From NCBI GenBank assembly GCA_964482515.1, contig CAYZXT010000006.1, positions 28,521 through 92,520 of the forward strand: a stretch of DNA of 64,000 bases, given 5' to 3'. Positions within the stretch are counted from its first letter, which is position 1; each line of letters opens with the position of its first letter. Positions 6,137 to 56,322 of the stretch are shown one piece after another. Both the position numbers and the translations under genes were made by a program. The stretch is from an uncultured Elusimicrobia bacterium. Lineage in GTDB: Bacteria > Elusimicrobiota > Elusimicrobia > FEN-1173. The notes beneath the pieces were generated by a model. It worked only from the letters and a program-made list of their open reading frames with translations. It was not told the DNA's origin and made no database searches.

Positions 6137-6165
6137 ATCCTATCACAAGGTCAAAAAGCTGTCAA
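6137..6165 (-). promoter_or_regulatory. sigma70-like promoter upstream of the PGM/PMM gene
   Basis: On the minus strand, TTGACA (6165-6160), a 17-nt spacer, then TAGGAT (6142-6137). Confidence 0.4.
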
Positions 6166-6284
6166 CGGCGGTCTGAGAGGGAAAAACGATGTGAAATCCT
6201 GACCTTAACAGTCATTTTTTGGGCGAATGGAGGACAGAAACTCGGCCGGATGGTAGGATTGATTTTTTGCCGGATGCAAACAGC

Positions 6285-15200: not shown

Positions 15201-18200
15201 CAGCCCCGCCTCCTTCGGCCGAAATGTCCGCCGCGCCGCCGTCCGCAGAAACGCGGCCACGTTCGGATCGTCCGCGTAATCGTCAAGATAAACGTCCTCA
15301 AAGGCCCGCATCCAATCCAGCGTGCCATCGGGGTTTCGAGCCTGGCGGCACAGGAGCCGGAGGCGTCCCAGGCTGAAATCCGCCCGAGCCGGATAGAGCC
15401 CGCGCCGCGCCGGCGGAGGGACCGTCTCGAAAGCCCTTCTCAAGGAGAGCACCTTCTCAATATCGCTTTCCGTGAGAGCTCCACTGAATTCGCGCTTCAA
15501 TTCCTCCACTATGTCCCGCACGGAAATGTCCAACACGGCGCGGTGAAGAACCGAGACGCCGGCGCCGCTCCCGATATGAGAAAGAAGGATCAAGCGTCCC
15601 GTTAAAACGTTTTCCCCTTTGCCGGCGAAGGGACGGACCTCGCCGTTCACCACGAGATAGGGATTTTCATGCAAAGCCGTTTCCAACTGGCGCAGGAGAT
15701 CCGGATTGGATTCCATCCCCGCCAAAACGACGGTTTCTCCCCGTTCCAAGGCCTCCAACACCTGCCTCTTGACCGCCCGCAAACGCCCCCCCGGCAACAG
15801 CTCGCTCGCCATCGATAGATCGTCCAGGATGGTCGCCGGCGTGACCGGATAAACAAGGGGGGGCTGGCCGTTCCGTTCGGAGACGTCCCGCATGATCCGC
15901 GCCAACAGGCCGGACGGGTCCGATCCTTCAACGAGCGACACCCGCCGGTCCCGCGCCATTTCCCACGACTCCGGATCCGGGGCCCTGGTCCGGCGGACCG
16001 CCGGCAGCATTCCACGATAACGCAACGGGACCTCCACGCCGACGCCCAATTCAATTTCCAATTCGCCGCCCATATGCAAAAGACGGTGCCACAGCGACTC
16101 CGGAATTTCCGGATCGGTTATAAGGACCCGGAGACGCCCTCCGTCCGCGCCCATCCGCTCCAGCAATCCCGCGCCCTGGGACAACGTCCCCTGGGAATCG
16201 ATGCGGGTGAACTCAAACAGCTGGTGCTGCGTTTCCCGGTTCAAGACCCACGCGCGCTCCGCCGGCCAGGCGGTCTCGCCCGCCGGCACGACCCGTTTAT
16301 TCTCCAAGGCGCGCCGCCCGTAGCCGCCCTCCGCCCAATGGACGGAAAAACCTTCCCGCGCCGCCACCCATTTTCCGTTGGAAAGGATCCCGCCGTTCAA
16401 GAGGGCCTGCCGGACCATGTGGGACAACCGGGTGTTGGGGATTCCCTGCTCATCTCGCCACACGCCCCCTTGGATCAAGAGGGGCCGCCCTTCCCTCATG
16501 GCCCGGACGAGTGCGCCCTCTTCCCAGCGCACGCTTCCGTTGGGCAGAAGCCGGTAGCGCGCGACCAGCGCATCCTTAATATCGATGTCGTCGGACTCGA
16601 AAAGTTCCGCGCGCAGGCCGTTGAAAGCCTCCGGATCGTCGACCTGGGACAAACCTTCCAGCGGATCCGCGTAATCCGCGTCCGCTTGGAATTCCCCGGT
16701 CAGGGAGCGTGAATAAAAATCAACCGAAAATTCACGCAGCTGGTCCTCCCGCACCGCCCCAACGATGCGGAGCGACGGAGAGGCCTTAACGCCCAAATAC
16801 TCCGGAGAGTCCCCGAACAGCTGATTGAATCCCGCCACGGTCTTTGGGTCGGAATTCGTGTAGTCCAGGAACAACACGCCGCCCCGCTCGATCAATTGAA
16901 GCAAGGGGCTTTTCGCCTCCCCAAACCGGCCGTTTATCACGCGCGCGGGATTGAGCAAATCATCCAAATCGGTGTCATCCCGCAGGGTCAGCCGCAAATA
17001 CGGAATGTTTCCGTTCGCGGCCACGATTTCCCTTAGCCGCACATCCAATGCCTCCACATCCCGGGGCGTATTCACGAAGGTCAACCCGCGACCTTCGTTC
17101 AATAGATCGGTCAGGCTCGGATCGGCCCACGGCGAACCCATCGTCATCGGGAAACGGCGGAATATTTTGTTCCACCCCGTGTGGACGGCAACGGCCAGAA
17201 CAAAGCCGATCACCATGGCCAGGAGGGAGTAAAGCGGTCCATCGAACCCGGACAGGAACAACCGGGGCGCGGCGAGGGCGGCGAGGTTGAATAAGACAAC
17301 GGCGAAAAGGCGGACGGCGAAATCAACGGGGGATTTATTTTCATGGCGGAAAACGAAAGACGCCTGGTGCGCGGCGTAATAAACCGCCGCCACCAGCCAG
17401 AACGACATGACTATCGCCAAAAGCAGCGGATTCGCCTCCAGCAACACAGCCTTCAAATTCCATGCCGCCATCAGGATGAGGCCAGGCGCGCGGCCCATCC
17501 AAAAGGCGCGCCAGCGCGTCAACGTCGGCTGCCCCCGCGCTTCGATTTCCTTCCGCGCCGAAGCGGCGGGAGCCAGGCCCGCTTCTTCAATCACGGAATA
17601 GCCAAGCAGCTTGTGACTGATCATAGGATTCCTCAGCCACTCCGGCGCATGCTTGACCGCATTTTCGTAATAGGCCTTCGTGCTCGACAGGATCAGCGAG
17701 CGGCTTCCCCACAGGTTTTTCCACCAAGGAACGCTCAACCTCCGCGGCGGACTGAACCTCACCGACTGAAAGGAATCAGCGCCTCCCACGGGGAATTCGG
17801 CGACCACCGACGGCGCGCCCGGTCGCGCAATCAACAAGCCGTTCTCTCCGAACCCGATACTCCACCCCCACCACGCCTTGGCTTTCTCAATCAGCGCGCG
17901 AAGATTTTTACGCCTTTCACCTGAGGGAAGTTTGTTTTCCCTCCACCGCGCCTGGCTGCCCTCAACAGTGGCGGCCAAGGCGTTCGCCTTCACGGCGAAA
18001 TCATGGGCCTGGATCCTTCGCTGGAAGGGTTCGGCCAACCGCCGAATCAGCCCCGGCGAGGTAAACCGTGCGAAGATCAGGGAGATGGGTTCTCCGGCGA
18101 AAATTTTCTCGATGGGGAGTGGATCGCGGGAGAAGATGTCCATGTAATTTTTGGCCTGATCGATGTTTTCCACCTTTGGCGTGACGACGACGTAAGACGC

Positions 18201-19853
18201 ATTCTTCCGCCGCCAAAGCGCCGTCATACCCTCGGTGTGGAACCCGCCGGTCACCAGGACGGCGGAGGTTTGCTTTTCTTCTTTCATTTTCCTGAGCAGG
18301 TTTTCGGTGAGGGCTTCATTGCGGGCCAAAGCCAGACGGCAGAAATCTTCGAACGGTTTCAGCAATTCCGCGCGTATGGCGGGAAAAGCCGGAGAGCCCG
18401 ACGACAGAGAGCGGGCCCGGTCCGCCATGTTGAGGATCAACGGGCGTCGTTCCGTATAATCGGCCCAATGCCGCGGCGTCATTTCCGTGCGGAGCAATTT
18501 CGTCAGCAGGGCCTGGTCGCGTCCCAACCCCGCCAGTTCCTTTTGCGCCGGCTCAAAAGTGAGCCCGGCTTCGACTGTTTTTTCCATCCGTTCCAACTCG
18601 TCCAACAACTTGTCCCGGTTTATGCGCTCCGCGGACTGGACGTAGGTCATATAATCGGACAACTGCGGATAGCCGGTCAGGTCGATGTTCTTTTCCCGGC
18701 AAAGATCGCGCATATACGCGTAATATTCCCCGTAGCTCCTTTGACCGGCGCGGTACTCGACGCTCGCCCGCACCAGTTCATCCAGGGACTCCCGGCTCAG
18801 TCGCGATACCAGGCGATCGATCAAATCAAGCCGCTCGCGTTCCACCTTTTTGAAATCCAGTTTTTTCTCCCACCGGATCGCCCGGGACAACAGGGCCACG
18901 TTGGGATAGGCCCCGGCATCCGCGCGGGAGGAAAGAAAATCCACGTAAGCGCCCAGCCCTGTTTTACCCGCCTGGAAAGTTTGATAGAAGCGGTCGAACT
19001 CCTTGAGCCCGGGCGAATAAATTTTTTCTTTCAGACCGCTCACGGCCTCGGCCAGACCCGAGAGGAACTCCTCCGCTTCCCTCCGGCGGTCCTGGGCCGA
19101 GAGCACCGCGCGGGTGTTGTCGGCGTAAAGGTCGCCCGTCTCCACGCCCCAGAGGAGCGGCGCGACCTCCGACACCAACCCCAAATATTCCGCACCGCCC
19201 ACGTATCCTTCCTCCAGGAAATAGTCCGCGAGCTGTTGGTTCATTTCTTTCCCGGCCTCGGGCAGGGCCTTGTATTTTTCCATCTCGAAGTAGCCCTCGG
19301 CGCCCTCCAACCCCACGAGCTTCACCCCGCGCCCATCCTTCAGTCCCTGCAGGATGCGGGCGATGTTCTTTTGCGCGTCGTAGGCGCCATGGATGTCTTG
19401 AATGTGGATGATGAGGGGCGAATCCGATTTAGCCAAATGGATTTCCCGGACGCTTCCATAGGGCAAGACCAATCGGGAAAGCCAAGCGGGAACAATCCCG
19501 TTCTTGGCCCACTTCACGTTTTCAGAGAGGTCATGGGCGGACAAGGGAGCCAGAGATGGGGCGAGGGTGGATCCGTTCAGGGTTTCGGGAAGTCCCAGCG
19601 GGATTTGGCCGGTGGGAAGCTGGGCGAGGAGTTGATAGTCCCGGGATGAAAGACTGTTCGCGCGGCCCGGGTTATTTTGCGCCGAAGAGCGGGATACGGA
19701 TCTTCGTTCCTCCCAAAAGTTCGCCTCGGCCAAGGGCGATGCGACCGTTGAATAAAATAACAAGGCGCAGAGGGCGGCGGCGAGGCTCTTTTTGCTCGGT
19801 CCTTGCGCGCTGAAAGGCCTGAAAATCGAGCGGGTTCGGCGGATTATATCCAT
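6285..19853 (-). CDS. giant multidomain membrane protein (4522 aa). It combines a signal peptide, a TIKI/TraB-like N-module, transmembrane clusters, AAA+ ATPase modules, HExxH motifs, an alpha/beta-hydrolase motif, 4 LRR-like tandem repeats and a C-terminal transmembrane region
   Basis: A single uninterrupted 13,569-nt ORF, open even through the low-GC stretch (8100-11100) where stops would be frequent by chance. It shows coding-like amino-acid composition throughout. The ATG at 19853 follows an AT-rich spacer. The N-terminus has a hydrophobic signal-like segment (LAAALCALLFYSTVASPLAEA). Confidence 0.85.
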   Translation of the reverse strand: MDIIRRTRSIFRPFSAQGPSKKSLAAALCALLFYSTVASPLAEANFWEERRSVSRSSAQNNPGRANSLSSRDYQLLAQLPTGQIPLGLPETLNGSTLAPSLAPLSAHDLSENVKWAKNGIVPAWLSRLVLPYGSVREIHLAKSDSPLIIHIQDIHGAYDAQKNIARILQGLKDGRGVKLVGLEGAEGYFEMEKYKALPEAGKEMNQQLADYFLEEGYVGGAEYLGLVSEVAPLLWGVETGDLYADNTRAVLSAQDRRREAEEFLSGLAEAVSGLKEKIYSPGLKEFDRFYQTFQAGKTGLGAYVDFLSSRADAGAYPNVALLSRAIRWEKKLDFKKVERERLDLIDRLVSRLSRESLDELVRASVEYRAGQRSYGEYYAYMRDLCREKNIDLTGYPQLSDYMTYVQSAERINRDKLLDELERMEKTVEAGLTFEPAQKELAGLGRDQALLTKLLRTEMTPRHWADYTERRPLILNMADRARSLSSGSPAFPAIRAELLKPFEDFCRLALARNEALTENLLRKMKEEKQTSAVLVTGGFHTEGMTALWRRKNASYVVVTPKVENIDQAKNYMDIFSRDPLPIEKIFAGEPISLIFARFTSPGLIRRLAEPFQRRIQAHDFAVKANALAATVEGSQARWRENKLPSGERRKNLRALIEKAKAWWGWSIGFGENGLLIARPGAPSVVAEFPVGGADSFQSVRFSPPRRLSVPWWKNLWGSRSLILSSTKAYYENAVKHAPEWLRNPMISHKLLGYSVIEEAGLAPAASARKEIEARGQPTLTRWRAFWMGRAPGLILMAAWNLKAVLLEANPLLLAIVMSFWLVAAVYYAAHQASFVFRHENKSPVDFAVRLFAVVLFNLAALAAPRLFLSGFDGPLYSLLAMVIGFVLAVAVHTGWNKIFRRFPMTMGSPWADPSLTDLLNEGRGLTFVNTPRDVEALDVRLREIVAANGNIPYLRLTLRDDTDLDDLLNPARVINGRFGEAKSPLLQLIERGGVLFLDYTNSDPKTVAGFNQLFGDSPEYLGVKASPSLRIVGAVREDQLREFSVDFYSRSLTGEFQADADYADPLEGLSQVDDPEAFNGLRAELFESDDIDIKDALVARYRLLPNGSVRWEEGALVRAMREGRPLLIQGGVWRDEQGIPNTRLSHMVRQALLNGGILSNGKWVAAREGFSVHWAEGGYGRRALENKRVVPAGETAWPAERAWVLNRETQHQLFEFTRIDSQGTLSQGAGLLERMGADGGRLRVLITDPEIPESLWHRLLHMGGELEIELGVGVEVPLRYRGMLPAVRRTRAPDPESWEMARDRRVSLVEGSDPSGLLARIMRDVSERNGQPPLVYPVTPATILDDLSMASELLPGGRLRAVKRQVLEALERGETVVLAGMESNPDLLRQLETALHENPYLVVNGEVRPFAGKGENVLTGRLILLSHIGSGAGVSVLHRAVLDISVRDIVEELKREFSGALTESDIEKVLSLRRAFETVPPPARRGLYPARADFSLGRLRLLCRQARNPDGTLDWMRAFEDVYLDDYADDPNVAAFLRTAARRTFRPKEAGLTGRSIHGPKLKAAMNKIVAPATWKDRFWEFADTLSLDLLDEAGVPESFDRAGAGRALELIQDALIAAHLGDDREGFYRALFRKANASVDQAPSINDKAGPVEESWDKRLGRVRRILAKSPAVFLKGSPGTGKSFAAKGLADALGLRMFGPVTIGVDAQEQDSNDDETGRASAFADITRWALHDGPALLVLDEANLARPDFWRFFGGLFVGEGETPYMWIEGRKIDMEGKKVVFTGNQETLQDRKYQDFLAPHVPTVAFPEFDEAFFRQRLEEYVSPDAPNAAALRALLLGVFETVRRVAGWEEGQGISLRDLQELSARAQVLSGSGNIVEEALLAAWEMFSPSLSPEGRVALRHALRLKFAVDAEALQNAWIEDLRNEGAQLYRSRALTLSRTTMRLAAAVGDFLIMREYRMKRNGLAAGKRGMILEGASGRGKDVTVVRVLESSGYEAVKAGAAAPGPRSFCHINASPRFDELEKAIVWAKENGVVLVVSELDVLPSGYLEGKLNDVLTDDNTDAKGFAFIATINGADFSGRERLSTALQNRVIFRREMDYDKDDLSEYALDIVTEFGTKAPALSDEDMAYIVRAHLWIQNALPRSRERPTPREFKRALLVAASGVSAEEAVERVYGPIYLRRMLRGQELPGRKALASLEFRSGLDKVKAIGRIAQFILPVHQRPVTISLKPAGQSAAGTYKAQKVDIAFREDQFDGQDWLNTLEHEAGHGLFTRDFAGLTPTSAPDFFLSLAGLQAPADPFEDVYQDLEDLRHKRAMRQHFPGSITQDNDHESVYFQRDLERGIAGDWKGLFSLAPKKIFQLALIAYGRKEISRTQLEAAASAWLERYGEVNLNPFALALRHLDVVDEIFQNGIPETLEEDEILYRQYLALKAMQRIKLDGEFLSLGAVPVRSPKEKSVLPRPGSVDVGKVLGRIGEVDLSGPPREMEERAVPEEPLEDVVEDLQDQRNEILKSLSDELGLMEDDLPLASEERLREIIAQLTDNKAPRSILTALGFLGDKDLTARKAKILAIAQAKLKSNKAPAGSRFRMRRLALAAGVLLASGILALLVVHANSGSSALPAMIPRIPEPELLRGMPNYLPLVIIVGLSLLASMVYGGIKLSAARAEGVSTEDSRLTRFLGFLGRIRISQMGRLAGLFGRVASETVGSRYDGIEGAHESKARDDNNDVQISESVSARPVPSVLSEESRYSKMKELSTTVSSLLDAEASAFVQRRATPGREFGPPGTGTLYLPKFLRNPLRGFRRGGMPTASTRPPLLVHGLPANGGNLIAGEFVHFLKDRGFEVVVVSGTLDEPQAAAYLKEAPYIIMSARELQSRVEAAYIYAVARRDRERAPVLKEAPVDSVYPDNVLDASGHFPTIEEQRRILVETFGENQVRLLLHGNLGLTLDRDYEVSWDALWKKCPSIESIIIREDGPSDLRIFNGLRGLRTIFIPPGKFSDDDVGLFFGNENDPMRIVVHVWDEEIVRQSYSASTFTPGLSNENLISEMEEACREFVPPHLTRDIYVRLGVSRKYEIKPTKVATVPDLMKMTEYSRRASILIFVDHDQFTDADMARIVLSAPFPEGVSIEEIQEIIMQGETPRFMDYSKAVAYCRAHPEEFTVTLPGATPPAAQRTVQPADTPDPFPAIEEQREALIDIFGPEKVKVDRNGDLELTVDDRDLFPYRECESLWKHCPSIRTIIVGENGTLSINFYEGIRGLRNIQLPAGRFHRVELERFYREAENSGRIRIYSDNPSGGMKWFSAADFIPGSGFKEVRAIIREKLGRHNMMSSVTAEFMQDMWQLRIRLSQGLGVDELRVLTGFSEMREVFLMSEGFQIDEFFMTFFILTSPVPENVHFIFSSDEGESRSMSYSEAVAYYRAHPKQFSLMALPGTTPPAAQRTVQPADTPDPFPTIEEQRRILVDTFGENQVHLRDDGPLELMLDRDYAVSWDVLWRKCPSIESIIIKEDGPSDLRVFSGLRGLKTMSIPEGKFRKKDIRSFYQDYSPAPKAFIAEISRSGKGKKTYRMDHIFPSYNDSVIAAELSNDLKAIVGPAAANESSIHPSSFGEFTFFVGASIKGSDMLKMVQYLNVRNLKIVIEEGQFSEAVLSRIILSSPRPEAVKIGFFKSFRTIAYPEAVAYRRAHPEEFADMGPIATPAPAAEDRFPTLESQVTRARDLFGPSATVEKNVFGLLVNVGQRQEPLEGMGSLPSLGILHLEASRVKDLSPLFGLRALHKVFVSDGQFPEAMIVNLFLHHPNPKDLIVDSGSKQYDHAWALSGKFGEPTNPTEEMMGTLRGLMRSLSKEETRVEDNSSVISINLEGLSEWLIIHRVLNELTTGITVPCTIKVNAAFPKKAMLDFILKCRVPEYVQVYFVGDDGKVSDIMGYEDAAKAYSSRERDAQSEPTAHGPRSELLNRLLETLVDRSAALKKVRDWFEAEGESDAYDRLFEDIERRAVSRETWRQGLWAAALFGVAAAAFLVSAQFLAASFGFAASSLGAAAAWPLAGLVLMGILRLVLAAAARSGAAYETPDGRAPPLFGFRSVRVEPGVDLLEFEKNTHALVLNPSLAHFVYHSNPVFKVLSRAGLYILGVPGHEALHGLGVVSERWAYFAAQVLPVSLGFLAGSLAGGVAGGIVLAMVFSALLSAAFRAILSARQDSVSEVSVVPVPVAVDDSWHVKESGFRDRARVWLRGIAPARNFGVDALGLPRIHIRLASNAFVDGTPDPAALRGALTKGLARESARGGDRGAAYVLGRALESLGDNAPGDAWSPRGHETFRSDILAAYAGRVVFTKVSARMRGGKDVFAEVPADVMKKGAARASVSGLLAAFVANNAGTAGDTANTLTLIVRDPRQASPDFWQGMSADAAFNAGRDREEFMRDYDVLLRQGNIRIILAGERPSLIASARAEVSLLDGAILRMDRLLSALEKAGQLDPKNAVIFASDQVELGVYKDVVVLVPIFRLVESLQEGLKALGLFLTSA
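7250..7830 (-). other. C-terminal transmembrane helix cluster of giant protein 1, containing HExxH motif 2 (VPGHEALHGLG, about 7420-7440)
   Basis: Hydrophobic runs LWAAALFGVAAAAFLVSAQFLAASFGFAASSLGAAAAWPLAGLVLMGIL and VLPVSLGFLAGSLAGGVAGGIVLAMVFSALLSAAF. HEALH was read from the reverse complement of 7421-7460. Confidence 0.55.
8650..11860 (-). repeat. four tandem intragenic repeat units of about 800 bp (about 265 aa, LRR_5/BspA-like core) inside giant gene 1
   Basis: Protein repeats share AVAY-RAHP ... PAAQRTVQPADTPDPFP-IEEQR ... W--CPSI-SIII-EDG-SDLR-F-GLRGL--I-IP-GKF. At the DNA level there are near-identical cores, e.g. 9466-9560 vs 10256-10350 (about 95% identity over about 95 bp) and 9255-9470 vs 10865-11100 (about 85%). 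The region is markedly lower in GC than its flanks. Confidence 0.8.
11340..11430 (-). other. alpha/beta-hydrolase (lipase/esterase)-like N-terminal motif
   Basis: PPLLVHGLPANGGNLIAGEFVHFLKDRGFEVVVV resembles the start of lipase/PGAP1-like alpha/beta hydrolases (hhhhHGhxGxxxxF...L...G). Confidence 0.35.
13030..13050 (-). other. HExxH motif 1 (LEHEAGHGLF), a possible zincin-type metal-binding site
   Basis: Read directly from the reverse-complement translation of 13021-13096 (DWLNTLEHEAGHGLFTRD). Confidence 0.4.
13690..13915 (-). other. second, degenerate AAA+-like module
   Basis: MILEGASGRGKDVTVV (Walker A-like GxxGxGK), VVLVVSELDVL (Walker B-like hhhhSELD), FAFIATINGA (sensor-1-like), ALQNRV. 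Confidence 0.55.
14600..14840 (-). other. AAA+ ATPase module (dynein/MoxR/midasin AAA_5-like) with canonical Walker A and B
   Basis: Walker A FLKGSPGTGKSFAAKGL (about 14800-14835), Walker B PALLVLDEANLARPDFW (about 14610-14650), then VVFTGNQ (sensor-1-like). Confidence 0.75.
17150..17500 (-). other. transmembrane helix cluster 1 of giant protein 1
   Basis: Hydrophobic runs LILMAAWNLKAVLLEANPLLLAIVMSFWLVAAVYYAA, FAVRLFAVVLFNLAALAAP and LYSLLAMVIGFVLAVAV. Confidence 0.6.
17990..19853 (-). other. shared N-terminal module of giant protein 1 (about 620 aa), putatively TIKI/TraB/GumN-like
   Basis: Motifs LIIHIQDIHGAYDAQ, LVGLEGAEG and VLVTGGFHTEGMTAL...YVVVTPKV are collinear with giant protein 2 (LVVLVQDAHEIYSAQ, LIGLEGAAG, VIVVGGFHAPAIEKL...VVTVTPKV). 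Confidence 0.55.
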
Positions 19854-38147: not shown

Positions 38148-38148
38148 A

Positions 38149-43907: not shown

Positions 43908-44116
43908 ATTAACATTTTCGACACCTTATCGCTAGGGCTCGACGCCAGTCGTGACCCCGGCATGCAATCTTATCGATGACGAAGCGGATTAATTTACATT
44001 ATTGTTACAATCACTTAACGCCCCGTTAAGACGGTCCCGCTACAATGACGGCTCATCCGCAACCTATATAACCTTCTCAACCATTGCACATCCAACTCAG
44101 CAAGGGGAATGAACCA

Positions 44117-47100
44117 ATGGCATCAAAACCGGTTTTCAACGCACGCAAATCCTGTTTGACCCGCTCGGTCGCCGCCGGGACGGCGCTCCTGTTCCTGGGA
44201 TCGACCGTCCTCTCCCCTTGGGCCGAAGCGAGTTTCTGGCAGGACCGGCGGAAAGCCGTCGAGTCATCGCAGCGTGACCCCGAAGCCGCGCAACAGTTCG
44301 CCCAACTCCCCCGGGCGCTTTCCGATTTGAACGGCGCCCTCCCGCGGGTCGCGAATTCCTTCCCCGACCGCCAAGCCCTCACCGACATTCCCTCCGTCCA
44401 AACGGACGGCATTTCCCGCAAAGACGTAGAACATCTGCCGTCGTGGCTGACCTCCCTTCCCGCGACCTACGGCGACATCCAGAAAATACGCCTGGTTACC
44501 CGGCCGGAAGAACATCCCCTCGTCGTCTTGGTGCAGGACGCCCATGAAATTTATTCCGCCCAGCTCAACATCTCGCACGTTCTGGAACACCTGGATAAAA
44601 ATTCCCAGGGCCAACGGCTGCTGATCGGGCTGGAAGGCGCCGCGGGGCCGCTCGATCTTAAAACTTACCGCCGATCCGCCGACCGCCGCCGCCAGGCCAT
44701 CGTTTCGGACGTCCTGCTCGAGACGAAACTGCTGAGCGGACCGGAACATTTCGGCTTCACGGCGGAGCGCGAACCCCGGATGCTGGGCGTCGAAACGCCT
44801 ACGCTCTACATCGAAAACGTCCAGGCCTATCAGGAATTGCTCCCCAGGAAAGACGCGTTCAAGGAACAGCTCTCCGCCTTCGATTTTTCCCTGAAACCGG
44901 CCAAAGATAAATTCTTCAGCCTCACGCTCTGGGCCCTGGACGAAAACATCGCCTCCTACCACAAAGGGTCCCTCGACCTCCTGCATTACGTGAAGTTTCT
45001 GTCCAAACAGGTCGAGCTCGGAAAGGATTTCCCGGAAACCCGCCAATTGCTGGACGTCCTGGCGCTCGAGGATTCCCTGGATTTCAAGGCCGTGGAAAGC
45101 GAGCGCCTCCAGCTCGTTAAAATACTCTCCCACCGCCTGGACAAGGCGGCGCTCAACGGTTTATTGCAGGCCAGCCTCGCCTACAAAATGGGGCGCATAT
45201 CCTACGGCGCGTACCACGAACACCTCCGCATCCTGACCCGGAACGCCGGCGTCGACCTCTCCCGCTTCCCCGGGTTCAACGTCTACATCCAGTACGTTCT
45301 GCTGTCGGAAAAAATCGACAAGTACACGTTGTTCGACGAAGTCAACGCTCTCAAAGAAACCGTCGTGGACCGTCTGGGGTCCAGCCAGGGCCAAAAAGAA
45401 CTGCTTCGCCTTTCCGAGGACATCCGCCTGCTGGAAAGTTTGTCGGAACAACAGTTCGGCCCCACCGAGTGGGAGCGATACTCGGCGCGGCGCGATGAAA
45501 TCCTGCGCATCCCGCAGCGCATCGCCGCGTTGTCCCATGACGCGCAGCCGTCGCCTTCGGCGGTCGCGTCGTTCCAGGAAACGCTCCCCCTGTTTGAACG
45601 TTTCTACCGCGCGGCCGACGCCCGCAACGGCGCCCTGATCGGGAACCTTCTCGAAGGCATGCAGCCCGCCGCGTCCGGACAAACGGCGGCCGTGATCGTG
45701 GTCGGCGGTTTCCACGCGCCCGCGATCGAAAAACTCCTGGGCGACAAAAACATTTCCGTCGTCACGGTCACGCCCAAGGTCGGCCCCGTCGACAAAGCGT
45801 CCCGCTATCTGGACGTTTTCGCGCTGAAGCACGTCCCGTTGGAGAAAATGTTCCTGGGCGAAAAGCTTTACATGGCGCCCGTGCGATTGACGGGCACGAA
45901 CGAGGCGATGGCGGCGATCCAACCAGCGAGAACAACCGATGATTTGAAGCGGGTCTATCTGACCTACGATTATATTCTCGACCAGCTGGGAGAGACCGGG
46001 AGAAAAATCAAGGCGTTCGGGGATCTCGACAAACACATCGAGTCAACTTTTGATCGCGCCCACGGCGTATGGTTCTTCAAGGTCCTAATGCCGGATGGGA
46101 GCAACCCAATTTATCTTTGCGGAGCGGAAACGGCAGGCGCCCGCGAAAAAGTAATCTCCGCTCTTGGTTATGCCCCAAGCGGTTTGAAATGGAAAATCGA
46201 CAAGCAGGAAGACGATATTGCGCTCGTCATCATTTCCGATCGAGCGGCCGAGAAATACCCCTTCTTACAGGCAAAACCATCCCTGACTTCCTGGGTCAAG
46301 GACGCGGTGGATTTCCTGCGCCAGCCGCCCACGGTCGCCGTGGCGGGTTTTGTCGCCGTCACCGCTTTAGTCGCTCAATACGCCATTGTCATTCTCGGCT
46401 TGGGAGTTCCGGCAGCTTTGATGATGGGAATGGCGTGGGGCGTCATTGTTCCCGTCCTTATCATTCTTATGGGCCAGTTGCCGCGATTCGCGCGAATGCC
46501 GGCTTTCGCTCCGGCAATGATGCGCGCCTCGAACAACTCACAACAACCGGAGGAGGTTTCCCCGAGCGCCCCGCTTTTCATGCAGTCCACCTCCCAGGGC
46601 GGAAAATCGGCAGTTAACGCTAATTCAACGGAAGAAACCCGCGCCATCAAGGCCTGGATCAGGGAGCAATTGGATTTAATGTCGGAGGAATTAGGCAAAA
46701 CCCCGGACACCTATGAGGAGATCCTGCGTCACAGCGACGAGGCTCTGACGGCTATCGCCCAACGGATCATCGACGGTACGTTAAACCGGCATGCAGCCAT
46801 CAACGTGGACCCAGACGCGCCCCCGGTCAAGACGACGGACGAGGAACTGAACATCGGCGTTTACGCGGTGGCCGCAAACCCTCTGCACTGGGGCCATATC
46901 CTGCTCGCTCTCGACGCCGTCGCCTATCACGGCGTGGACCAGGTAGTGTTCATCCCGCAGGGCGAAGACGAACGCAAACCCGACCTCGACAAGCTGAACA
47001 CCGAGCAGCGGCACGAAATCGTTCCGGCCGTCTTGGCCAATTTCGCGCCATTCTTTAAATATTCCCCCCTCGGGCTCGGTAACAAATACGACGGCGAAAC

Positions 47101-49825
47101 GAACGTTTTCCGCCTTTTCAAAATGAATCCTAATCAGAGGATGCGCCTGCATTATATGGTCGGCGCCGATCACTTCAACGTGTTCGTCCTCAACAAAGCC
47201 GGGCGATGGGTGGAAGACACGGTGGCGAAACTTTCCAAGAACCTCTTGGACCCAGCGCGCATCGCCGCATTGGACAACGTTTACCAAAACAATCCCCTCC
47301 ACAGACTCACGGCCCTTTTCATCGCCAGGATTGAAAAAGGTCGGGCGCTTATGCCGCGGTTCGATCAATTGGAAGCCGAGATCCGAGAAGCCTCACTAAC
47401 AAATATTTCCTTCGCTGATCAAGAAAGCGGGGGAAGCATTGCGCACGAGCAACTGACCATTCACGTCATGAAAGGCGTCCAATTCGAAGCCTCCTCCACC
47501 ATGGTGCGGAACGGCGATTACTCCCTGGTCCCTTACCACTATTACATGTACGCCAAAGCGCGCGGCATGTATAAAATCCCGCCGACGCCCCGGTGGAAAA
47601 TGGAAAAAAAACCCACGATGAGGCGCCTCGACAAAATCACCGGATTTTTACCCGACGGCGTGGCACCGCAGGGCATTTACTCGATGGAATGGCACCTCCG
47701 GTGGACGGCCAACATCACCCAGGCGGCCGCCAAGGAATTGCAGGTCAGCACCAACTGGGCGGAGTTCTTGGCGATGGTCCACGACCTCAGCGACTGGCCC
47801 TTCCGCCACTTTGGCCGGACAGGAGACTTCGCGCGGGTCATCGATGCCGCGCAAAGAGCCGGGTACAACCAGAAAGTCCAAACAGTGGAGCTGCTTGCCC
47901 AGGATGGGGTTTATCTGACCCCCGAAATGGTCAAAGACATTATACACTTCGACATAAGCAACCCGAACCCCACCAGCCCGGAGCAACAAGCCGCTTTGAT
48001 CGTGGATTCGCTCATGAGCGTTATGTCGGATATCGTCTTCGGACTAACGTATAGAGTCAGCGCTTCCAGCCAGGACACCCTCATTACGTACGACCAAATT
48101 CCGGAGGACCTTAGAACCCTCTTTAATTTGCGGGAAACGACACTCACGACTCTAAACGAGCAAAGCGACAACAACATCGGCGAGATGGTCCAGGTCGCCG
48201 TTTTAAACGCAGTCAGCAACCTGTACCGCGAGGTCGAGAGCTCCCAGGAGACCATTGAGGAGCTGGAACGTGTCATTCGGGAAATTGAAGCGGAAAAGGG
48301 TCCGCTTGATGACAAAGCCAAAGCGGACGTTCGCATCAAGGTTGTTAGGTTCGGGATTTACAAGCGAGCCGGTCAGGTCAAACAACAGGCCCGGGCAAAT
48401 TTTATCAGCGATCTCCTCTACAAACCCATGACGGCGGAATATTCCGCCGCAGCCTCCGATTACCTCATGCGGGCCTATGAAAAAACCTTCGGCGTCCCCT
48501 TCATCGGCGACGGTTCCGACGATGAAAAAGCCCGCGAATTCCTGGTAATACTCAGCCGCATGTCGGAAGACGAAGTCATCGCCTTGGCGGACGACGAGCC
48601 TGCGCGGAGCATGATGTACTTCGGTGGCGCGGCGGTGACGGGCGCCCTTGGCTTAATGGCCGCGTTTGGATCGATTCTCTTGGTTAATCGCTGGATCAAA
48701 AATCAAAATCCGGACTTCCGCCTTCCCTCATGGAACAACAAAGGGACCGCGGCCTATTTTGCTTTCAGCGTCCTTATGGGAATCCTTTTGTCCTCGTTCA
48801 TCCATGCATTGGGCGCCCCGCTTTGGATTGCCGACATGCTGACGGCGCTGTTCGTCATCTCCCCCCAGATTATCCTGACCGCCCGAATGAACTTGGCCCC
48901 GGCGACACATCAAACCCTTACGGACGAACACGTCGCGGAGGAAATCATTCCCAGTATTCGGATTACAACGACGAGCCTCGAGAAACAGCAATCTGAGATC
49001 CTGGCGCTGCTCACCGGCGACGCATCGAAATCCCCCGCCCGGAAACGGCAGCTGGCGGGCCGCGTCGCGGCGTTCGTGTCGACCTACGCCGCCCTGGACC
49101 GCGCCGCCGAGCAGCCCGGCCGGTCGGAAGCCGTGATTCAAGGCCTGGCGGATTCAGTCAGGCTAGCGCTCTCCTCGCTGAACGGATCCTTCAACGAGAC
49201 CCTGGCGTCCCTCTATAACGGCCTCATCGCGGCCGGGGTCCAATTGTTCCAGGGAAGCATCCCGAGCGGCCTGCAGATCGTCGTCGTCAACGCCGCCGAC
49301 CTGAAGGGTTTGAGCGCTTCCGAGCAGGACGTCTATCTCGCCCGCTACGTCGCGCCCGTGTTGGATTCCGCGCAGCGCGTCCTGGTCATCGGCGACGCGG
49401 CGTCTTACGGAGACGCTTCCATCGCCAAGATAAAGTCCGTCATCGACAACGCGAACGGCGGAAACGGCCTGCCCTACAGCTACGCGGAGGCGAAACGTCT
49501 GGACCCGGCCGATCCGGAATCGCCGGTCGACCTCATGGCGACGCTGAAACAAAGGGACGGCGCGGCGCTGAACGAGCTGACGGAAACAGGACTGCAGTTG
49601 AGCGGGTTCGTCACGGCCCTGGAACTCGCGAGCGTCGCGCCGCTGTCGAGCGACGACATCCGCGAGCTGTCGGACGCCGGCCTGCTCGCCCCCGACGGAA
49701 ACCTCTGGTTCCTGTGGGTCAGCATCGCCCTCAACCAGGCGTTCTCCGCGCAGAACGCGGCGCAGGCGATCCAGGGCATCGTCAACGACATCAACGGCAT
49801 CATCCAAACGCTGATCGCCGCCTAA
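44117..49825 (+). CDS. giant membrane protein 2 (about 1902 aa). It has a signal peptide, the TIKI/TraB-like N-module shared with giant protein 1, transmembrane clusters, an embedded NadD-like nucleotidyltransferase domain and a C-terminal region of unknown function
   Basis: 5.7-kb uninterrupted ORF. ATG at 44117 with AAGGGGA RBS (the listed TTG at 44084 is a less likely start). Signal-like LTRSVAAGTALLFLGSTVLSPWAEA. Transmembrane clusters at about 46320-46480 and 48610-48890. Confidence 0.85.
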   Translation: MASKPVFNARKSCLTRSVAAGTALLFLGSTVLSPWAEASFWQDRRKAVESSQRDPEAAQQFAQLPRALSDLNGALPRVANSFPDRQALTDIPSVQTDGISRKDVEHLPSWLTSLPATYGDIQKIRLVTRPEEHPLVVLVQDAHEIYSAQLNISHVLEHLDKNSQGQRLLIGLEGAAGPLDLKTYRRSADRRRQAIVSDVLLETKLLSGPEHFGFTAEREPRMLGVETPTLYIENVQAYQELLPRKDAFKEQLSAFDFSLKPAKDKFFSLTLWALDENIASYHKGSLDLLHYVKFLSKQVELGKDFPETRQLLDVLALEDSLDFKAVESERLQLVKILSHRLDKAALNGLLQASLAYKMGRISYGAYHEHLRILTRNAGVDLSRFPGFNVYIQYVLLSEKIDKYTLFDEVNALKETVVDRLGSSQGQKELLRLSEDIRLLESLSEQQFGPTEWERYSARRDEILRIPQRIAALSHDAQPSPSAVASFQETLPLFERFYRAADARNGALIGNLLEGMQPAASGQTAAVIVVGGFHAPAIEKLLGDKNISVVTVTPKVGPVDKASRYLDVFALKHVPLEKMFLGEKLYMAPVRLTGTNEAMAAIQPARTTDDLKRVYLTYDYILDQLGETGRKIKAFGDLDKHIESTFDRAHGVWFFKVLMPDGSNPIYLCGAETAGAREKVISALGYAPSGLKWKIDKQEDDIALVIISDRAAEKYPFLQAKPSLTSWVKDAVDFLRQPPTVAVAGFVAVTALVAQYAIVILGLGVPAALMMGMAWGVIVPVLIILMGQLPRFARMPAFAPAMMRASNNSQQPEEVSPSAPLFMQSTSQGGKSAVNANSTEETRAIKAWIREQLDLMSEELGKTPDTYEEILRHSDEALTAIAQRIIDGTLNRHAAINVDPDAPPVKTTDEELNIGVYAVAANPLHWGHILLALDAVAYHGVDQVVFIPQGEDERKPDLDKLNTEQRHEIVPAVLANFAPFFKYSPLGLGNKYDGETNVFRLFKMNPNQRMRLHYMVGADHFNVFVLNKAGRWVEDTVAKLSKNLLDPARIAALDNVYQNNPLHRLTALFIARIEKGRALMPRFDQLEAEIREASLTNISFADQESGGSIAHEQLTIHVMKGVQFEASSTMVRNGDYSLVPYHYYMYAKARGMYKIPPTPRWKMEKKPTMRRLDKITGFLPDGVAPQGIYSMEWHLRWTANITQAAAKELQVSTNWAEFLAMVHDLSDWPFRHFGRTGDFARVIDAAQRAGYNQKVQTVELLAQDGVYLTPEMVKDIIHFDISNPNPTSPEQQAALIVDSLMSVMSDIVFGLTYRVSASSQDTLITYDQIPEDLRTLFNLRETTLTTLNEQSDNNIGEMVQVAVLNAVSNLYREVESSQETIEELERVIREIEAEKGPLDDKAKADVRIKVVRFGIYKRAGQVKQQARANFISDLLYKPMTAEYSAAASDYLMRAYEKTFGVPFIGDGSDDEKAREFLVILSRMSEDEVIALADDEPARSMMYFGGAAVTGALGLMAAFGSILLVNRWIKNQNPDFRLPSWNNKGTAAYFAFSVLMGILLSSFIHALGAPLWIADMLTALFVISPQIILTARMNLAPATHQTLTDEHVAEEIIPSIRITTTSLEKQQSEILALLTGDASKSPARKRQLAGRVAAFVSTYAALDRAAEQPGRSEAVIQGLADSVRLALSSLNGSFNETLASLYNGLIAAGVQLFQGSIPSGLQIVVVNAADLKGLSASEQDVYLARYVAPVLDSAQRVLVIGDAASYGDASIAKIKSVIDNANGGNGLPYSYAEAKRLDPADPESPVDLMATLKQRDGAALNELTETGLQLSGFVTALELASVAPLSSDDIRELSDAGLLAPDGNLWFLWVSIALNQAFSAQNAAQAIQGIVNDINGIIQTLIAA
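46840..47260 (+). other. NadD-like (nicotinate/nicotinamide-nucleotide adenylyltransferase fold) nucleotidyltransferase domain inside giant protein 2
   Basis: GVYAVAANPLHWGHILLALDAV...VDQVVFIPQGE...EQRHEIVPAVL...MRLHYMVGADHFN is collinear with NadD (GIFGGTFDPIHIGHLILAE...LDKVIFIPTGN...EHRLNML...ELYFIIGADNL), including the HxGH motif. Confidence 0.7.
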
Positions 49826-55714: not shown

Positions 55715-56212
55715 TCAGCGGAAGTTGGTGAACTGAAGGGCCACGCCGAAATCGCCGCTCCGGAGCACGTTCATCGCGGCCTGGAGGTCGTCCTTGGACC
55801 GGCTCGTCACGCGCACCTGGTCCGCCTGGATGGAAGGCGTCACTTTGATTTTCGAATCCTTGATCGCCTTGACCATCTCCTTCGCCTTCTCCGATGAGAT
55901 GCCCTGCGTGATCTTGGCGACCTGCCGGACCGTGGCGCCGAGGGCGACCTCGAGCTTCTGGAAATCGAAGGACTTCAGGGAGATCCCCTGCTTCACGGAG
56001 CGGGACTGGAAGATGTCGATCACGCTTTTGAGCTTGCCTTCGTTGTCCGAGTAAAAGGTGACGGTGTTTTCTTTTTTATCCAATTCCAGCCGGCTGACGC
56101 TTCCTTTGAAATCGAAGCGCGTGGTGATCTCCCGGTTCGCCGTGTTGACCGCGTTGTCCACCGCCTGCAAATCCACTTTTGAAGTAACGTCGAACGAAAA
56201 TTCCTGCGCCAT
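55715..56212 (-). CDS. yajQ: YajQ-family (UPF0234) nucleotide/c-di-GMP-binding protein
   Basis: MAQEFSFDVTSKVDLQAVDNAV ... MVKAIKDSKIKV ... DQVRVTSRSKDDLQAAM ... LQFTNFR is collinear with E. coli YajQ. Confidence 0.88.
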   Translation of the reverse strand: MAQEFSFDVTSKVDLQAVDNAVNTANREITTRFDFKGSVSRLELDKKENTVTFYSDNEGKLKSVIDIFQSRSVKQGISLKSFDFQKLEVALGATVRQVAKITQGISSEKAKEMVKAIKDSKIKVTPSIQADQVRVTSRSKDDLQAAMNVLRSGDFGVALQFTNFR

Positions 56213-56322
56213 TCCATCCTCCTTTGTTCGCCATCCAATAATCAATCATTGATTTTATTTTAACTTGTTTGCTCGCGCCTGCCTACCTGGACGCCCGCTC
56301 AGCCAATAGATATCATCTTCCC

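What the first reader, a model, noticed from the sequence alone, without database searches (positions are those of the whole stretch)
46840..47260. NadD-like nucleotidyltransferase domain embedded in a giant membrane protein
Residues around IGVYAVAANPLHWGHILLALDAVAYHGVDQVVFIPQGEDERKPDL...MRLHYMVGADHFN align motif-by-motif with nicotinate-nucleotide adenylyltransferase. They include the (H/T)xGH nucleotide-binding motif, the FIP motif and the C-terminal GAD motif. The Gly-rich GGTFDP is replaced by AVAANP. A cytidylyl/adenylyl-transferase-fold domain sits between two transmembrane clusters of a secreted giant protein. This is unusual. It suggests a nucleotidylylating (AMPylating or NMP-transferring) effector or a nucleotide-sensing module rather than NAD biosynthesis.
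Basis: partly seen in the sequence, partly recalled or inferred. Interest (0 to 1): 0.8.

Follow-up and report, generated by a model that had tools for sequence, protein, structure and literature searches.

The report
NadD-like domain in giant membrane protein
It belongs to an uncurated NadD-like family and is one interchangeable enzyme-like module in a family of Elusimicrobia giant proteins, so it is very unlikely to be the cell's NAD-synthesis enzyme.

Summary
The quoted peptide lies in frame in one ORF (44117-49825, +, 1902 aa) between two hydrophobic clusters. It is homologous to NadD: NCBIfam E=2.5e-8, a family profile against PDB NadD E=5e-12, an AlphaFold model with pLDDT above 90, and the top 50 Foldseek hits are all NadD.

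It is not a canonical NadD. Scores fall far below the curated cut-offs and the GGTFDP loop is replaced. The domain belongs to a separate family of more than 300 clusters. Members are stand-alone proteins, many with signal peptides in Elusimicrobia, or one to six copies inside giant proteins of 3-7.7 kaa, at least one of them from Omnitrophota.

The host protein has a signal peptide, a conserved N-terminal TIKI/ChaN/erythromycin-esterase-like module, a TM hairpin, the NadD-like unit, a dGTPase-like HD module, more TM helices and a C-terminal region. Thirty-one homologues and a 4522-aa paralogue in the same window share only the N-module. They carry other enzyme-like domains instead: aminotransferase, GDH, PGM, NUDIX, SecA, Lon.

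This is an Elusimicrobial, smaller variant of the "multi-enzyme" giant membrane proteins described for Omnitrophota. The biochemical function is unproven. The most likely role is an ATP/nucleotide-binding nucleotidyltransferase with an acceptor other than NaMN, probably outside the cytoplasm.

The parts
44117..49825 (+). Giant ORF of 1902 aa from ATG 44117. An in-frame TTG at 44084 would give 1913 aa, and all aa numbers in this report count from 44084.
   Evidence: The identical protein (P0001) is found on independent public contigs.
44117..44230 (+). Signal-peptide-like N-terminus (MASKPVFNARKSCLTRSVAAGTALLFLGSTVLSPWAEA), followed by the family-conserved FWxxRR motif.
   Evidence: Sequence. 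The same pattern occurs in nearly all homologues. No dedicated signal-peptide predictor was available.
44408..45850 (+). Conserved N-terminal module (aa 109-589) with a TIKI/ChaN/erythromycin-esterase/RRSP-like alpha/beta core and a large helical insert. D152, H154, E184 and H544 are invariant or nearly so.
46331..46492 (+). First hydrophobic cluster, aa 750-803. Its 54 residues fit a two-helix TM hairpin.
   Evidence: Kyte-Doolittle scan.
46646..47581 (+). NadD-like family unit, aa 855-1166. It comprises an N-terminal two-helix hairpin (aa 855-898), a Rossmann-like nucleotidyltransferase core, an insertion of about 100 aa after GADHF, and a C-terminal subdomain.
46886..46897 (+). HWGH, the (H/T)xGH nucleotide-binding and catalytic motif (aa 935-938).
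   Evidence: In the family, H938 is invariant, W936 is 98% conserved and H935 93%.
47492..47509 (+). SSTMVR, the ISSTxxR motif of NadD/NMNAT (aa 1137-1142).
   Evidence: It aligns to SSTMIR of B. subtilis NadD. S1137, S1138 and R1142 are each 91% conserved in the family.
47597..48598 (+). dGTPase-like HD module plus helical tail (aa 1172-1505). It carries an FRRL-like motif, H1204 and HD at aa 1233-1234 (nt 47780-47785) in HDLSDWPFRHF, and ends in the conserved LSRMSEDEVI just before the TM cluster.
   Evidence: NCBIfam dGTPase NF002327 E=1.9e-6. Homologous modules occur in four other large proteins, P0128, P0156, P0165 and P0171. Profile against PDB: 2dqb dNTPase E=3.2e-5, YqeK-type 8jja E=0.05. 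The AF2 model is low-confidence here, pLDDT 30-57.
48620..48883 (+). Second hydrophobic cluster, aa 1513-1600, about three TM helices. The flank before it is acidic and the loop after the first helix is basic.
48884..49822 (+). C-terminal region, aa 1601-1913. No homologue or family was detected.
6285..19853 (-). Paralogous giant ORF of 4522 aa with the same N-terminal module (35% identity over about 560 aa) and an AAA_5 domain. It has no NadD-like domain.

Best explanation
The segment encodes an intact NadD-fold nucleotidyltransferase domain. It belongs to a distinct, uncurated NadD-like family rather than being a canonical nicotinate-nucleotide adenylyltransferase.

Shown: the family keeps the ATP-side catalytic motifs (HxGH, GxDH, SSTxxR). 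It has its own invariant residues (DxRKP, DGE, DT, R1082), a two-helix N-terminal hairpin and a large insertion. It replaces the GGTFDP loop with PVAANP (AVAANP here). In this protein the domain is one module of a modular, signal-peptide-bearing, multi-pass giant protein with this layout: TIKI/ChaN/Ere-like N-module, TM hairpin, NadD-like unit plus dGTPase-like HD module, TM cluster, C-terminal region. Paralogues and homologues keep the N-module and swap the middle part for other enzyme-like domains. This makes the protein an Elusimicrobial, smaller counterpart of the multi-enzyme giant membrane proteins of Omnitrophota.

Inferred: the domain binds ATP or another nucleotide and carries out nucleotidyl-transfer chemistry at the alpha-phosphate, or the reverse pyrophosphorolysis, on a partner other than NaMN. 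It works next to an HD phosphohydrolase-like module as a nucleotide-processing unit. It most probably lies on the same, extracytoplasmic side as the N-module. It does not serve housekeeping NAD synthesis.
For: Identity and fold.

Distinct family: an exhaustive phmmer search finds 333 cluster representatives (169 at E<=1e-10) at 30-49% identity. All tested members score only 20-63 bits against NCBIfam NadD models whose cut-offs are 112-150, and most are sub-threshold for Pfam PF01467. About 45 positions are conserved at 80% or more, and the query keeps all motif residues.

Not housekeeping: the domain occurs in up to 6-7 copies per giant protein. About 30 stand-alone members carry signal peptides with AxA-type cleavage sites and Pro/Ala-rich linkers, and those with source names are Elusimicrobia.

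Modularity of the host: homologues align only to aa 10-600. An in-window paralogue exists. Other enzyme domains sit between TM clusters in the homologues. The HD module recurs behind other domains in other giants and is never paired with the NadD-like domain among the hits.

Outside location: a signal peptide followed by an even (2-TM) hairpin. The flank before TM3 is acidic (-6/+1) and the loop after it is basic (+3). Signal peptides are present on stand-alone relatives. DeepTMHMM results for Omnitrophota giants are reported in 10.64898/2026.06.07.730766.

Known analogues.
Against: No biochemical data exist for any member. An ATP-using enzyme outside the cytoplasm lacks an obvious ATP supply. 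The topology rests on a crude hydropathy scan and the positive-inside rule, and the flanks of the first hairpin are both mildly basic (+3/-2 and +2/-1), which is ambiguous. Many family members have no signal peptide and are presumably cytoplasmic, so the family is not intrinsically exported. Several giant-embedded copies elsewhere have degenerate motifs (HWDH, NWGH, QHKD, SATxxR or lost), which hints that catalysis is dispensable in some contexts. Loss of the NaMN-binding site is inferred from sequence alignment, not from a structural superposition. I could not check whether this genome also encodes a canonical nadD; I only showed that ten ORFs of 156-370 aa in the 64-kb window are not nadD.
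Confidence: 0.6

Rival explanations
1. The domain is a pseudoenzyme or ligand-binding module. It keeps the NadD fold and perhaps nucleotide binding, for example to sense ATP, NAD or a dinucleotide, or as a structural brick. It does not turn over substrate.
For: The domain is repeated up to 6-7 times in single giant proteins. Many embedded copies have degenerate HxGH or SSTxxR motifs (HWDH, NWDM, QHKD, SATxxR). Some copies of the HD module have also lost the HD dyad (AD or RD in P0128). The multi-enzyme giants of Omnitrophota carry highly divergent domains of unknown activity.
Against: The copy in this window keeps every catalytic-type motif (HWGH, GEDERKP, YDGETN, GADHF, SSTMVR). These residues are 91-100% conserved across stand-alone members, which is the pattern expected of an active site under purifying selection.
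Confidence: 0.22
2. One reading: an AMPylating or NMP-transferring effector, delivered to or acting on another cell or on surface proteins.
For: The N-module shares its fold with toxin and effector domains (RRSP, HopBA1, PMT). The protein has a signal peptide. Omnitrophota giant proteins have been proposed to act on host or prey.
Against: Known protein AMPylators use other folds (Fic, GS-ATase/DrrA-like, SelO pseudokinase; my own knowledge, not tested here). No secretion-system or toxin-immunity genes lie next to the gene; the neighbours are DAG kinase, FolD, squalene synthases and sulfatase-family genes. The swapped modules in homologues are metabolic enzyme types rather than toxins.
Confidence: 0.08
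3. It is a real NAD-biosynthetic NadD that happens to be tethered to the membrane as part of a large fusion protein.
For: NadD is the closest known family by sequence and by structure. IMG annotates some stand-alone relatives as nicotinic acid mononucleotide adenylyltransferase. K965 aligns with the PPHK lysine and R976/H977 with the HR of NadD.
Against: Scores are 4-5 times below the equivalog cut-offs. The GGTFDP loop is replaced. No conserved aromatic aligns with the nicotinate-stacking Trp after GAD (alignment, combined with my knowledge of NadD structures). Relatives carry signal peptides and the domain occurs in multiple copies per protein. The topology is probably extracytoplasmic.
Confidence: 0.07
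4. It is an assembly or frameshift artefact that fuses a separate nadD gene to its neighbours.
For: None found.
Against: The frame is continuous over 5.7 kb. The identical 1902-aa protein is present in an independent Logan assembly and in an NCBI contig. The same domain is embedded in dozens of other giant proteins.
Confidence: 0.01

Closest known systems
Bacterial NadD (nicotinate-nucleotide adenylyltransferase, EC 2.7.7.18; TIGR00482/NF000840; PDB 1kam, 4rpi, 5deo)
   Same: The fold is the same (top 50 Foldseek hits). The HxGH and ISSTxxR motifs, the GAD-like motif, the LDxVxF strand and the HR/RH motif all align over the full length.
   Different: Identity is 14-18%. The NCBIfam NadD scores are 33.6 and 27.7 bits against cut-offs of 150 and 112. 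GGTFDP becomes AVAANP. The unit has an extra N-terminal helical hairpin and an insertion of about 100 aa. The pyridine-side residues are not recognisably conserved. The domain is embedded in a 1902-aa membrane protein, relatives have signal peptides, and some proteins carry several copies.
Multi-enzyme giant membrane proteins of Omnitrophota (West-Roberts et al. 2023, bioRxiv 10.1101/2023.11.21.568195, 'Archaeovorins'; 2026 preprint 10.64898/2026.06.07.730766, class 1 'multi-enzyme metabolic clusters')
   Same: Both have a signal peptide, many TM helices and divergent copies of cytoplasmic-type enzyme domains (starch synthase, PGM, NUDIX, SecA-DEAD, AAA_5, HD, HATPase_c) tiled along one polypeptide. 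The NadD-like domain itself occurs twice in a 7679-aa Omnitrophota protein (P0034, 44% identity).
   Different: The proteins here are 1.2-4.5 kaa rather than 10-147 kaa. By the names that sources give to relatives they are Elusimicrobia. They are united by a conserved TIKI/ChaN-like N-terminal module, which is not among the passages I read in either paper. Neither paper contains the terms 'adenylyltransferase' or 'nicotinate'.
NadD-YqeK (HD) gene pair or fusion of Firmicutes and Mollicutes (NCBIfam NF005519/PRK07152)
   Same: A NadD-type domain is followed directly by an HD-superfamily domain.
   Different: NF005519 matches only the first 63 residues of the NadD part, at 27 bits against a cut-off of 315. 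The HD module is closer to dGTPase (E=3.2e-5) than to YqeK (E=0.05). In other giants the HD module follows unrelated domains, so the adjacency looks like module shuffling rather than a conserved functional pair.
TIKI / TraB-PrgY / ChaN / erythromycin-esterase / RRSP superfamily (for the N-terminal module)
   Different: A helical insert of about 300 aa splits the core. The first acid is Asp rather than Glu. There is no sequence-level Pfam hit for this protein; only one distant homologue, P0025, carries PF04187.

Membership tests
NadD (nicotinate-nucleotide adenylyltransferase) | Rossmann-like nucleotidyltransferase fold superimposable on NadD structures | tested here: met
   AF2 pLDDT is above 90 for aa 855-1165. 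The top 50 Foldseek PDB hits are all NadD, with probability 1.0 and target-normalised TM-score 0.62-0.77.
NadD (nicotinate-nucleotide adenylyltransferase) | (H/T)xGH motif | tested here: met
   HWGH at aa 935-938 aligns to HNGH of 1kam.
NadD (nicotinate-nucleotide adenylyltransferase) | C-terminal ISSTxxR motif | tested here: met
   SSTMVR at aa 1137-1142 aligns to SSTMIR of 1kam.
NadD (nicotinate-nucleotide adenylyltransferase) | Gly-rich GGxFDP loop preceding HxGH | tested here: not met
   The query has AVAANP and the family consensus is PVAANP.
NadD (nicotinate-nucleotide adenylyltransferase) | Score above curated equivalog or Pfam cut-offs | tested here: not met
   NF000840 33.6 bits against 150; TIGR00482 27.7 against 112.45; PF01467 12.6 against 21. 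Ten relatives are likewise below the NCBIfam NadD cut-offs, and nine of the ten are below the Pfam cut-off.
NadD (nicotinate-nucleotide adenylyltransferase) | NaMN-binding determinants (PPHK lysine; aromatic stacking residue after GAD) | tested here: inconclusive
   K965 aligns with the PPHK lysine. No conserved Trp or Tyr aligns with W116/Y117 of B. subtilis NadD, because the family has its insertion there (alignments; residue roles are from my knowledge of NadD structures). No structural superposition with ligand was possible.
NadD (nicotinate-nucleotide adenylyltransferase) | NaMN + ATP -> NaAD + PPi activity; essential single-copy cytoplasmic enzyme | not testable with these tools
   This needs an enzyme assay and a whole-genome nadD inventory. 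Only the 64-kb window could be checked, and no nadD was found among ten ORFs of 156-370 aa.
Uncurated NadD-like family defined here (stand-alone plus giant-embedded) | Family-specific near-invariant residues (G925, P933, H935, W936, H938, D952, D962, K965, R976, G1004, E1005, Y1024, G1027, D1029, H1030, D1045, R1082, S1137, S1138, R1142) | tested here: met
   The query has all of them. It departs from the consensus only at non-motif positions (N923, A928, V951, S1051 and a few others).
Uncurated NadD-like family defined here (stand-alone plus giant-embedded) | N-terminal two-helix hairpin and the insertion between GxDH and SSTxxR | tested here: met
   Helices at model residues 2-16 and 21-43 have pLDDT 95-98. 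The same region aligns in stand-alone members.
Multi-enzyme giant membrane proteins (Omnitrophota type) | Signal peptide plus multiple TM helices, with divergent enzyme-like domains between them | tested here: met
   The topology comes from hydropathy only.
Multi-enzyme giant membrane proteins (Omnitrophota type) | Length of at least 10,000 aa and membership of phylum Omnitrophota | tested here: not met
   The protein is 1902 aa. Named relatives are Elusimicrobia. The window's own taxon is inferred, not shown, because an exact 48-mer was absent from the GTDB representatives.
NadD-YqeK fusion (PRK07152) | YqeK-type HD domain fused after NadD; score above cut-off | tested here: not met
   NF005519 gives 27.4 bits against 315, over the NadD N-terminus only. 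The HD profile hits dNTPase 2dqb at E=3.2e-5 and YqeK 8jja at E=0.05.
HD superfamily, dGTPase-like | H...HD...D metal-binding motif with the HDxGxxPFxH signature | tested here: inconclusive
   H1204 and HDLSDWPFRHF are present and align to THSLEV...HDLGHPPFGH of 2dqb. However, the score is 27 bits against a cut-off of 393, the model is low-confidence, and the distal Asp was not assigned.
TIKI/ChaN/Ere/RRSP superfamily (N-module) | Parallel beta-sheet core fold | tested here: met
   [not shown]
TIKI/ChaN/Ere/RRSP superfamily (N-module) | 2His/2Glu catalytic set | tested here: inconclusive
   D152 (nearly invariant) and H154, E184 and H544 (invariant) have superfamily-like spacing. Equivalence was judged from sequence pattern, not from residue-level superposition.

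The most novel reading that the evidence does not exclude
Elusimicrobia, and in larger form Omnitrophota, export catalytically competent copies of cytoplasmic-type nucleotide enzymes. They do so either as signal-peptide-bearing stand-alone NadD-like proteins or strung on TIKI-headed giant membrane proteins. Here an ATP-type nucleotidyltransferase sits next to a dNTPase-like HD hydrolase. Together these would form an extracytoplasmic nucleotide or dinucleotide processing and salvage machine, possibly linked to phosphate acquisition. Supporting hints are that stand-alone relatives sit inside phoB/phoR-porin-pstS-pstCA loci in Desulfobacterota-type MAGs and that one relative is fused to a nucleoside phosphorylase domain. 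The N-terminal TIKI-like hydrolase might process the polyprotein or its targets.
Probability: 0.2. Interest if true: 0.75.

Novelty: new variant of a known kind. Interest (0 to 1): 0.55.

Why it matters
If the reading is right, three things follow.

1. A sizeable NadD-derived family is currently mis-annotated or unannotated. It has more than 300 clusters at 50% identity, in MAGs labelled Elusimicrobia, Omnitrophota, Planctomycetales, Spirochaetota and Deltaproteobacteria/Thermodesulfobacteriota. It deserves its own model, because automatic annotation as nicotinate-nucleotide adenylyltransferase would inflate NAD-pathway reconstructions for these uncultured phyla.

2. The puzzling multi-enzyme giant membrane proteins are not confined to Omnitrophota. 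In Elusimicrobia they come in a compact, tractable form of 1.2-4.5 kaa with a shared TIKI-like head. That makes expression, topology mapping and activity tests realistic.

3. Signal-peptide-bearing members of an ATP-dependent enzyme fold raise a concrete, testable question about nucleotide chemistry outside the cytoplasm.

Tried and rejected
- A word-indexed homologue search with aa 873-1473 returned nothing, not even the protein itself. I treat this as a limitation of the index, because the exhaustive search then found 333 relatives.
- A profile search with the family alignment in the same index gave only 14 hits.
- An exact 48-mer from the window was not found in the GTDB representative genomes, so the organism is not directly named.
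- The afdb50 fold library was unavailable.
- The genomic contexts of two stand-alone relatives (P0195, P0196) showed no informative neighbours.
- The C-terminal 313 aa and aa 600-860 have no detectable relatives in the collected sets or in the window.
- The HD module could not be modelled confidently, with pLDDT 30-57 from a 5-sequence alignment.
- I rejected the NadD-YqeK fusion reading because the HD module is dGTPase-like and recurs behind unrelated domains.
- I rejected the artefact reading.
- I rejected a mobile-element or toxin-cassette reading, because the neighbours are ordinary chromosomal genes.
Full report

Translating 44084-49825 (+) gives one uninterrupted frame. Public gene calls start at ATG 44117, giving 1902 aa. 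The identical protein (P0001) lies on an independent Logan contig and on a 116-kb NCBI contig. That rules out a local assembly or frameshift fusion. All aa numbers below count from 44084.

The quoted peptide is present in frame:
- IGVYAVAANP at aa 924
- HWGH at aa 935-938
- FIPQG at aa 956
- MVGADHFN at aa 1025

Hydrophobic clusters flank the region at aa 750-803 and aa 1513-1600. The N-terminus looks like a signal peptide ending in AEA.

**2. Is it NadD-like beyond chance?**

Yes, on four independent lines.
- NCBIfam NadD models match at E=2.5e-8 (NF000840) and 2.4e-6 (TIGR00482).
- phmmer against PDB finds B. subtilis NadD 1kam at E=5.7e-4. That alignment places GGTFDP against AVAANP and HNGH against HWGH. 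It also gives a second weak segment aligning SSTMVR to the ISSTxxR motif SSTMIR.
- A 55-member family profile reaches 1kam at E=4.9e-12 and M. tuberculosis NadD 4rpi at E=1.9e-11 over the full length.
- An AlphaFold2 model of aa 855-1510, built with a 64-sequence alignment, has pLDDT mostly above 90 for aa 855-1165. Its 50 best Foldseek PDB matches are all NadD structures, with probability 1.0 and target-normalised TM-score 0.62-0.77.

It spans aa 855-1166 (nt 46646-47581). It comprises a two-helix N-terminal hairpin, the Rossmann-like core, an insertion of about 100 aa after GADHF, and the C-terminal subdomain that carries SSTMVR.

**3. It is not a canonical NadD but a member of a separate family**

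The scores are 4-5 times below the curated cut-offs: 33.6 against 150, 27.7 against 112, and Pfam PF01467 12.6 against 21.

An exhaustive phmmer search of 1.84 billion cluster representatives with aa 901-1480 found 333 proteins at E<=1e-3 and 169 at E<=1e-10. These align at 30-49% identity to the NadD-like part. They fall into three groups:
- (a) Stand-alone proteins of 240-460 aa. About 30 of them have a typical N-terminal signal peptide with an AxA-type site and a Pro/Ala-rich linker. Where a source names them, they are Elusimicrobia "hypothetical protein", or in IMG "nicotinic acid mononucleotide adenylyltransferase".
- (b) Proteins of about 300-350 aa without a signal peptide.
- (c) One to six or seven copies inside giant proteins of 3-7.7 kaa. 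One is a 7679-aa Omnitrophota protein (P0034).

Ten members tested all hit NadD models at only 20-63 bits, and most miss Pfam.

The family has its own conservation signature: G-x-x-P-V-A-A-N-P-x-H-W-G-H, LDKVVF, G-x-D-x-R-K-P, RH, DGE-x-N, Y-x-x-G-x-D-H, DT, R1082 and SST-x-x-R. The query keeps all motif residues.

A scan of GTDB species representatives found 71 loci. Most are Elusimicrobia MAGs. Others are Omnitrophota, Planctomycetales, Spirochaetota, Thermodesulfobacteriota/"delta proteobacterium" and Endomicrobia.

Retention of HxGH and SSTxxR argues that the ATP side of the active site is under selection. On the pyridine-nucleotide side, the Trp/Tyr after GAD in NadD (my own knowledge of NadD structures) is replaced by the family insertion. 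From this I infer a different second substrate.

Embedded copies in other giants are a mix of intact and degenerate forms: HWDH, NWGH, QHKD, NWDM, and SATxxR or lost. The copy in this window is of the intact type.

**4. What the host protein is**

The 31 homologues of the whole protein align only to aa 10-600. A second giant ORF in the same window (6285-19853, minus strand, 4522 aa, with an AAA_5 domain) has the same N-terminal module at 35% identity.

Downstream, the homologues carry different Pfam domains:
- aminotransferase
- Glu/Leu/Phe/Val dehydrogenase
- inositol monophosphatase plus NUDIX
- phosphoglucomutase
- starch synthase
- SecA
- Lon/AAA
- M48 plus ABC1
- metallophosphatase

Where I mapped these domains, they lie between TM clusters, just as the NadD-like unit does.

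After the NadD-like unit comes a module of about 330 aa (aa 1172-1505). It has an FRRL-like motif, H1204 and HDLSDWPFRHF. It matches dGTPase models (NCBIfam E=1.9e-6). As a 5-sequence profile it hits the T. thermophilus dNTPase 2dqb at E=3.2e-5 and YqeK-type Ap4A hydrolase only at E=0.05.

The same HD-like module occurs in four other large proteins, behind unrelated domains. In one of these (P0128) both copies have lost the His of the HD dyad (AD, RD). It is never next to a NadD-like domain among the hits. The NadD-HD adjacency here therefore looks like module shuffling rather than a conserved NadD-YqeK-type pair.

**5. Location**

The layout is a signal peptide, then the N-module, then a 54-residue hydrophobic stretch that fits two helices. 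This puts the NadD-HD segment on the same side as the N-module, that is, outside.

The 20 residues before the next TM helix are strongly acidic (+1/-6), and the loop after that helix is basic (+3). This agrees with an outside location. Stand-alone relatives in the same phylum carry signal peptides. A 2026 preprint reports from DeepTMHMM that the metabolic Pfam content of Omnitrophota giants faces the periplasm or exterior.

Against this, the flanks of the first hairpin are both mildly basic. No proper topology predictor was available. An ATP-type enzyme outside the cell has no obvious substrate supply. I rate the outside location at about 0.55.

**6. Comparison with what is known**

Giant, TM-rich proteins tiled with divergent cytoplasmic-type enzyme domains have been described in Omnitrophota. 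These domains include starch synthase, PGM, NUDIX, SecA-DEAD, AAA_5, HD, HATPase_c and glycolytic enzymes (West-Roberts et al. 2023; the 2026 complete-genome preprint).

Neither text contains the terms "adenylyltransferase" or "nicotinate", and the passages I read describe no TIKI-like head. Elusimicrobia appear in the 2023 paper only as a downloaded comparison set and are not mentioned in the 2026 text.

The present protein is therefore a new, compact variant of a known kind. Its NadD-like domain is a member of an uncurated family, not a new fold or a new principle.

**7. Most likely mechanism**

Shown:
- a NadD fold with intact ATP-side motifs
- membership of a separate conserved family
- modular embedding next to an HD-like module between TM clusters
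- an N-terminal TIKI-like module shared by paralogues

Inferred:
- The domain binds a nucleotide and catalyses nucleotidyl transfer, or the reverse pyrophosphorolysis, with a partner other than NaMN.
- It acts together with the HD phosphohydrolase-like module on nucleotides or dinucleotides.
- It is probably outside the cytoplasm.

One functional clue came from the related loci. In eight "delta proteobacterium"/Thermodesulfobacteriota loci, the stand-alone gene lies directly after an OmpR-type response regulator and a histidine kinase. In five of these loci it lies before a predicted porin and/or PstS-type binding protein and ABC-permease genes. I confirmed the Pfam assignments (Porin_5, PBP_like_2, two BPD_transp_1) in one locus, L051; the other loci were matched by BLAST clustering. 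One relative (P0201) is fused to a PNP_UDP_1 nucleoside phosphorylase domain. Both observations point towards nucleotide or phosphate salvage rather than NAD synthesis. This link is suggestive only.

**8. Rivals**

| Reading | Confidence | Main point |
|---|---|---|
| Pseudoenzyme or sensor module | 0.22 | Supported by degenerate copies elsewhere; contradicted by the intact motifs here |
| True membrane-tethered NadD | 0.07 | Contradicted by cut-offs, the replaced loop, signal peptides on relatives and multiple copies |
| Artefact | 0.01 | Excluded by independent assemblies |

**9. Verdict**

The finding is a new variant of a known kind, with moderate interest (0.55). The protein is a tractable entry point into the unexplained multi-enzyme giant membrane proteins. 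It also exposes a sizeable NadD-like family that current annotation either ignores or mislabels.

Noticed in passing
window 6285-19853 (-): A second giant ORF of 4522 aa is a paralogue of the target. It has the same signal peptide and TIKI/ChaN-like N-module (35% identity over about 560 aa) and an AAA_5 (MoxR/dynein-type) ATPase domain near aa 1673. Most of its length has no Pfam or NCBIfam hit.
   Followed up: partly
[not shown]
   Followed up: partly
loci L047, L051, L056, L057, L059, L060, L071, L075 (match at about 6001-6700 in most): In MAGs labelled delta proteobacterium or Thermodesulfobacteriota, the stand-alone NadD-like gene directly follows an OmpR-type response regulator and a histidine kinase. 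In five of these loci it precedes a predicted porin and/or PstS-type binding protein and ABC permeases, a pho/pst-like arrangement. Pfam assignments (Porin_5, PBP_like_2, BPD_transp_1) were confirmed only in L051.
   Followed up: partly
proteins P0035, P0037, P0038, P0040, P0042, P0043 and about 25 more: Many stand-alone NadD-like proteins begin with a classic signal peptide followed by a Pro/Ala-rich linker of 100-150 aa; those with source names are Elusimicrobia. This is an unusual feature for a fold that normally uses cytoplasmic ATP.
   Followed up: partly
protein P0201 (538 aa): One NadD-like family member is fused to a PNP_UDP_1 (nucleoside phosphorylase, PF01048) domain.
   Followed up: no
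window 47597-48598 (+); P0128, P0156, P0165, P0171: The dGTPase-like HD module, with its helical tail ending in LSRM(S/T)E(D/E)EV(I/V), recurs in other large proteins behind unrelated domains. In P0156 the upstream sequence reads like a histidine-kinase ATPase domain. Both copies in P0128 have lost the His of the HD dyad.
   Followed up: partly
window 6285-19853 and 44117-49825 compared with neighbouring genes: Both giant genes have lower G+C (0.586-0.587) than the surrounding housekeeping genes (0.63-0.67). Their GC3 values (0.70 and 0.74) are below those of most neighbours (0.78-0.86), although the DAG-kinase gene is lower still (0.63).
   Followed up: no
window 37278-39195 (-), 50957-55643 (-), 28032-28652 (-), 55715-56245 (-): Chromosomal context includes two tandem squalene/phytoene-synthase genes and two tandem sulfatase-family membrane proteins directly downstream of the giant gene. 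There is also a Nudix hydrolase and a YajQ-family c-di-GMP-binding protein. None of the ten ORFs of 156-370 aa that I tested is a canonical nadD.
   Followed up: partly
loci L066 (Omnitrophota, ORF of at least 2366 aa) and L067 (Endomicrobia, ORF of at least 3685 aa): Further NadD-like domains are embedded in very long ORFs of other lineages in the GTDB representative genomes. The L067 ORF starts near the edge of the fetched locus, so it may be longer than measured.
   Followed up: no
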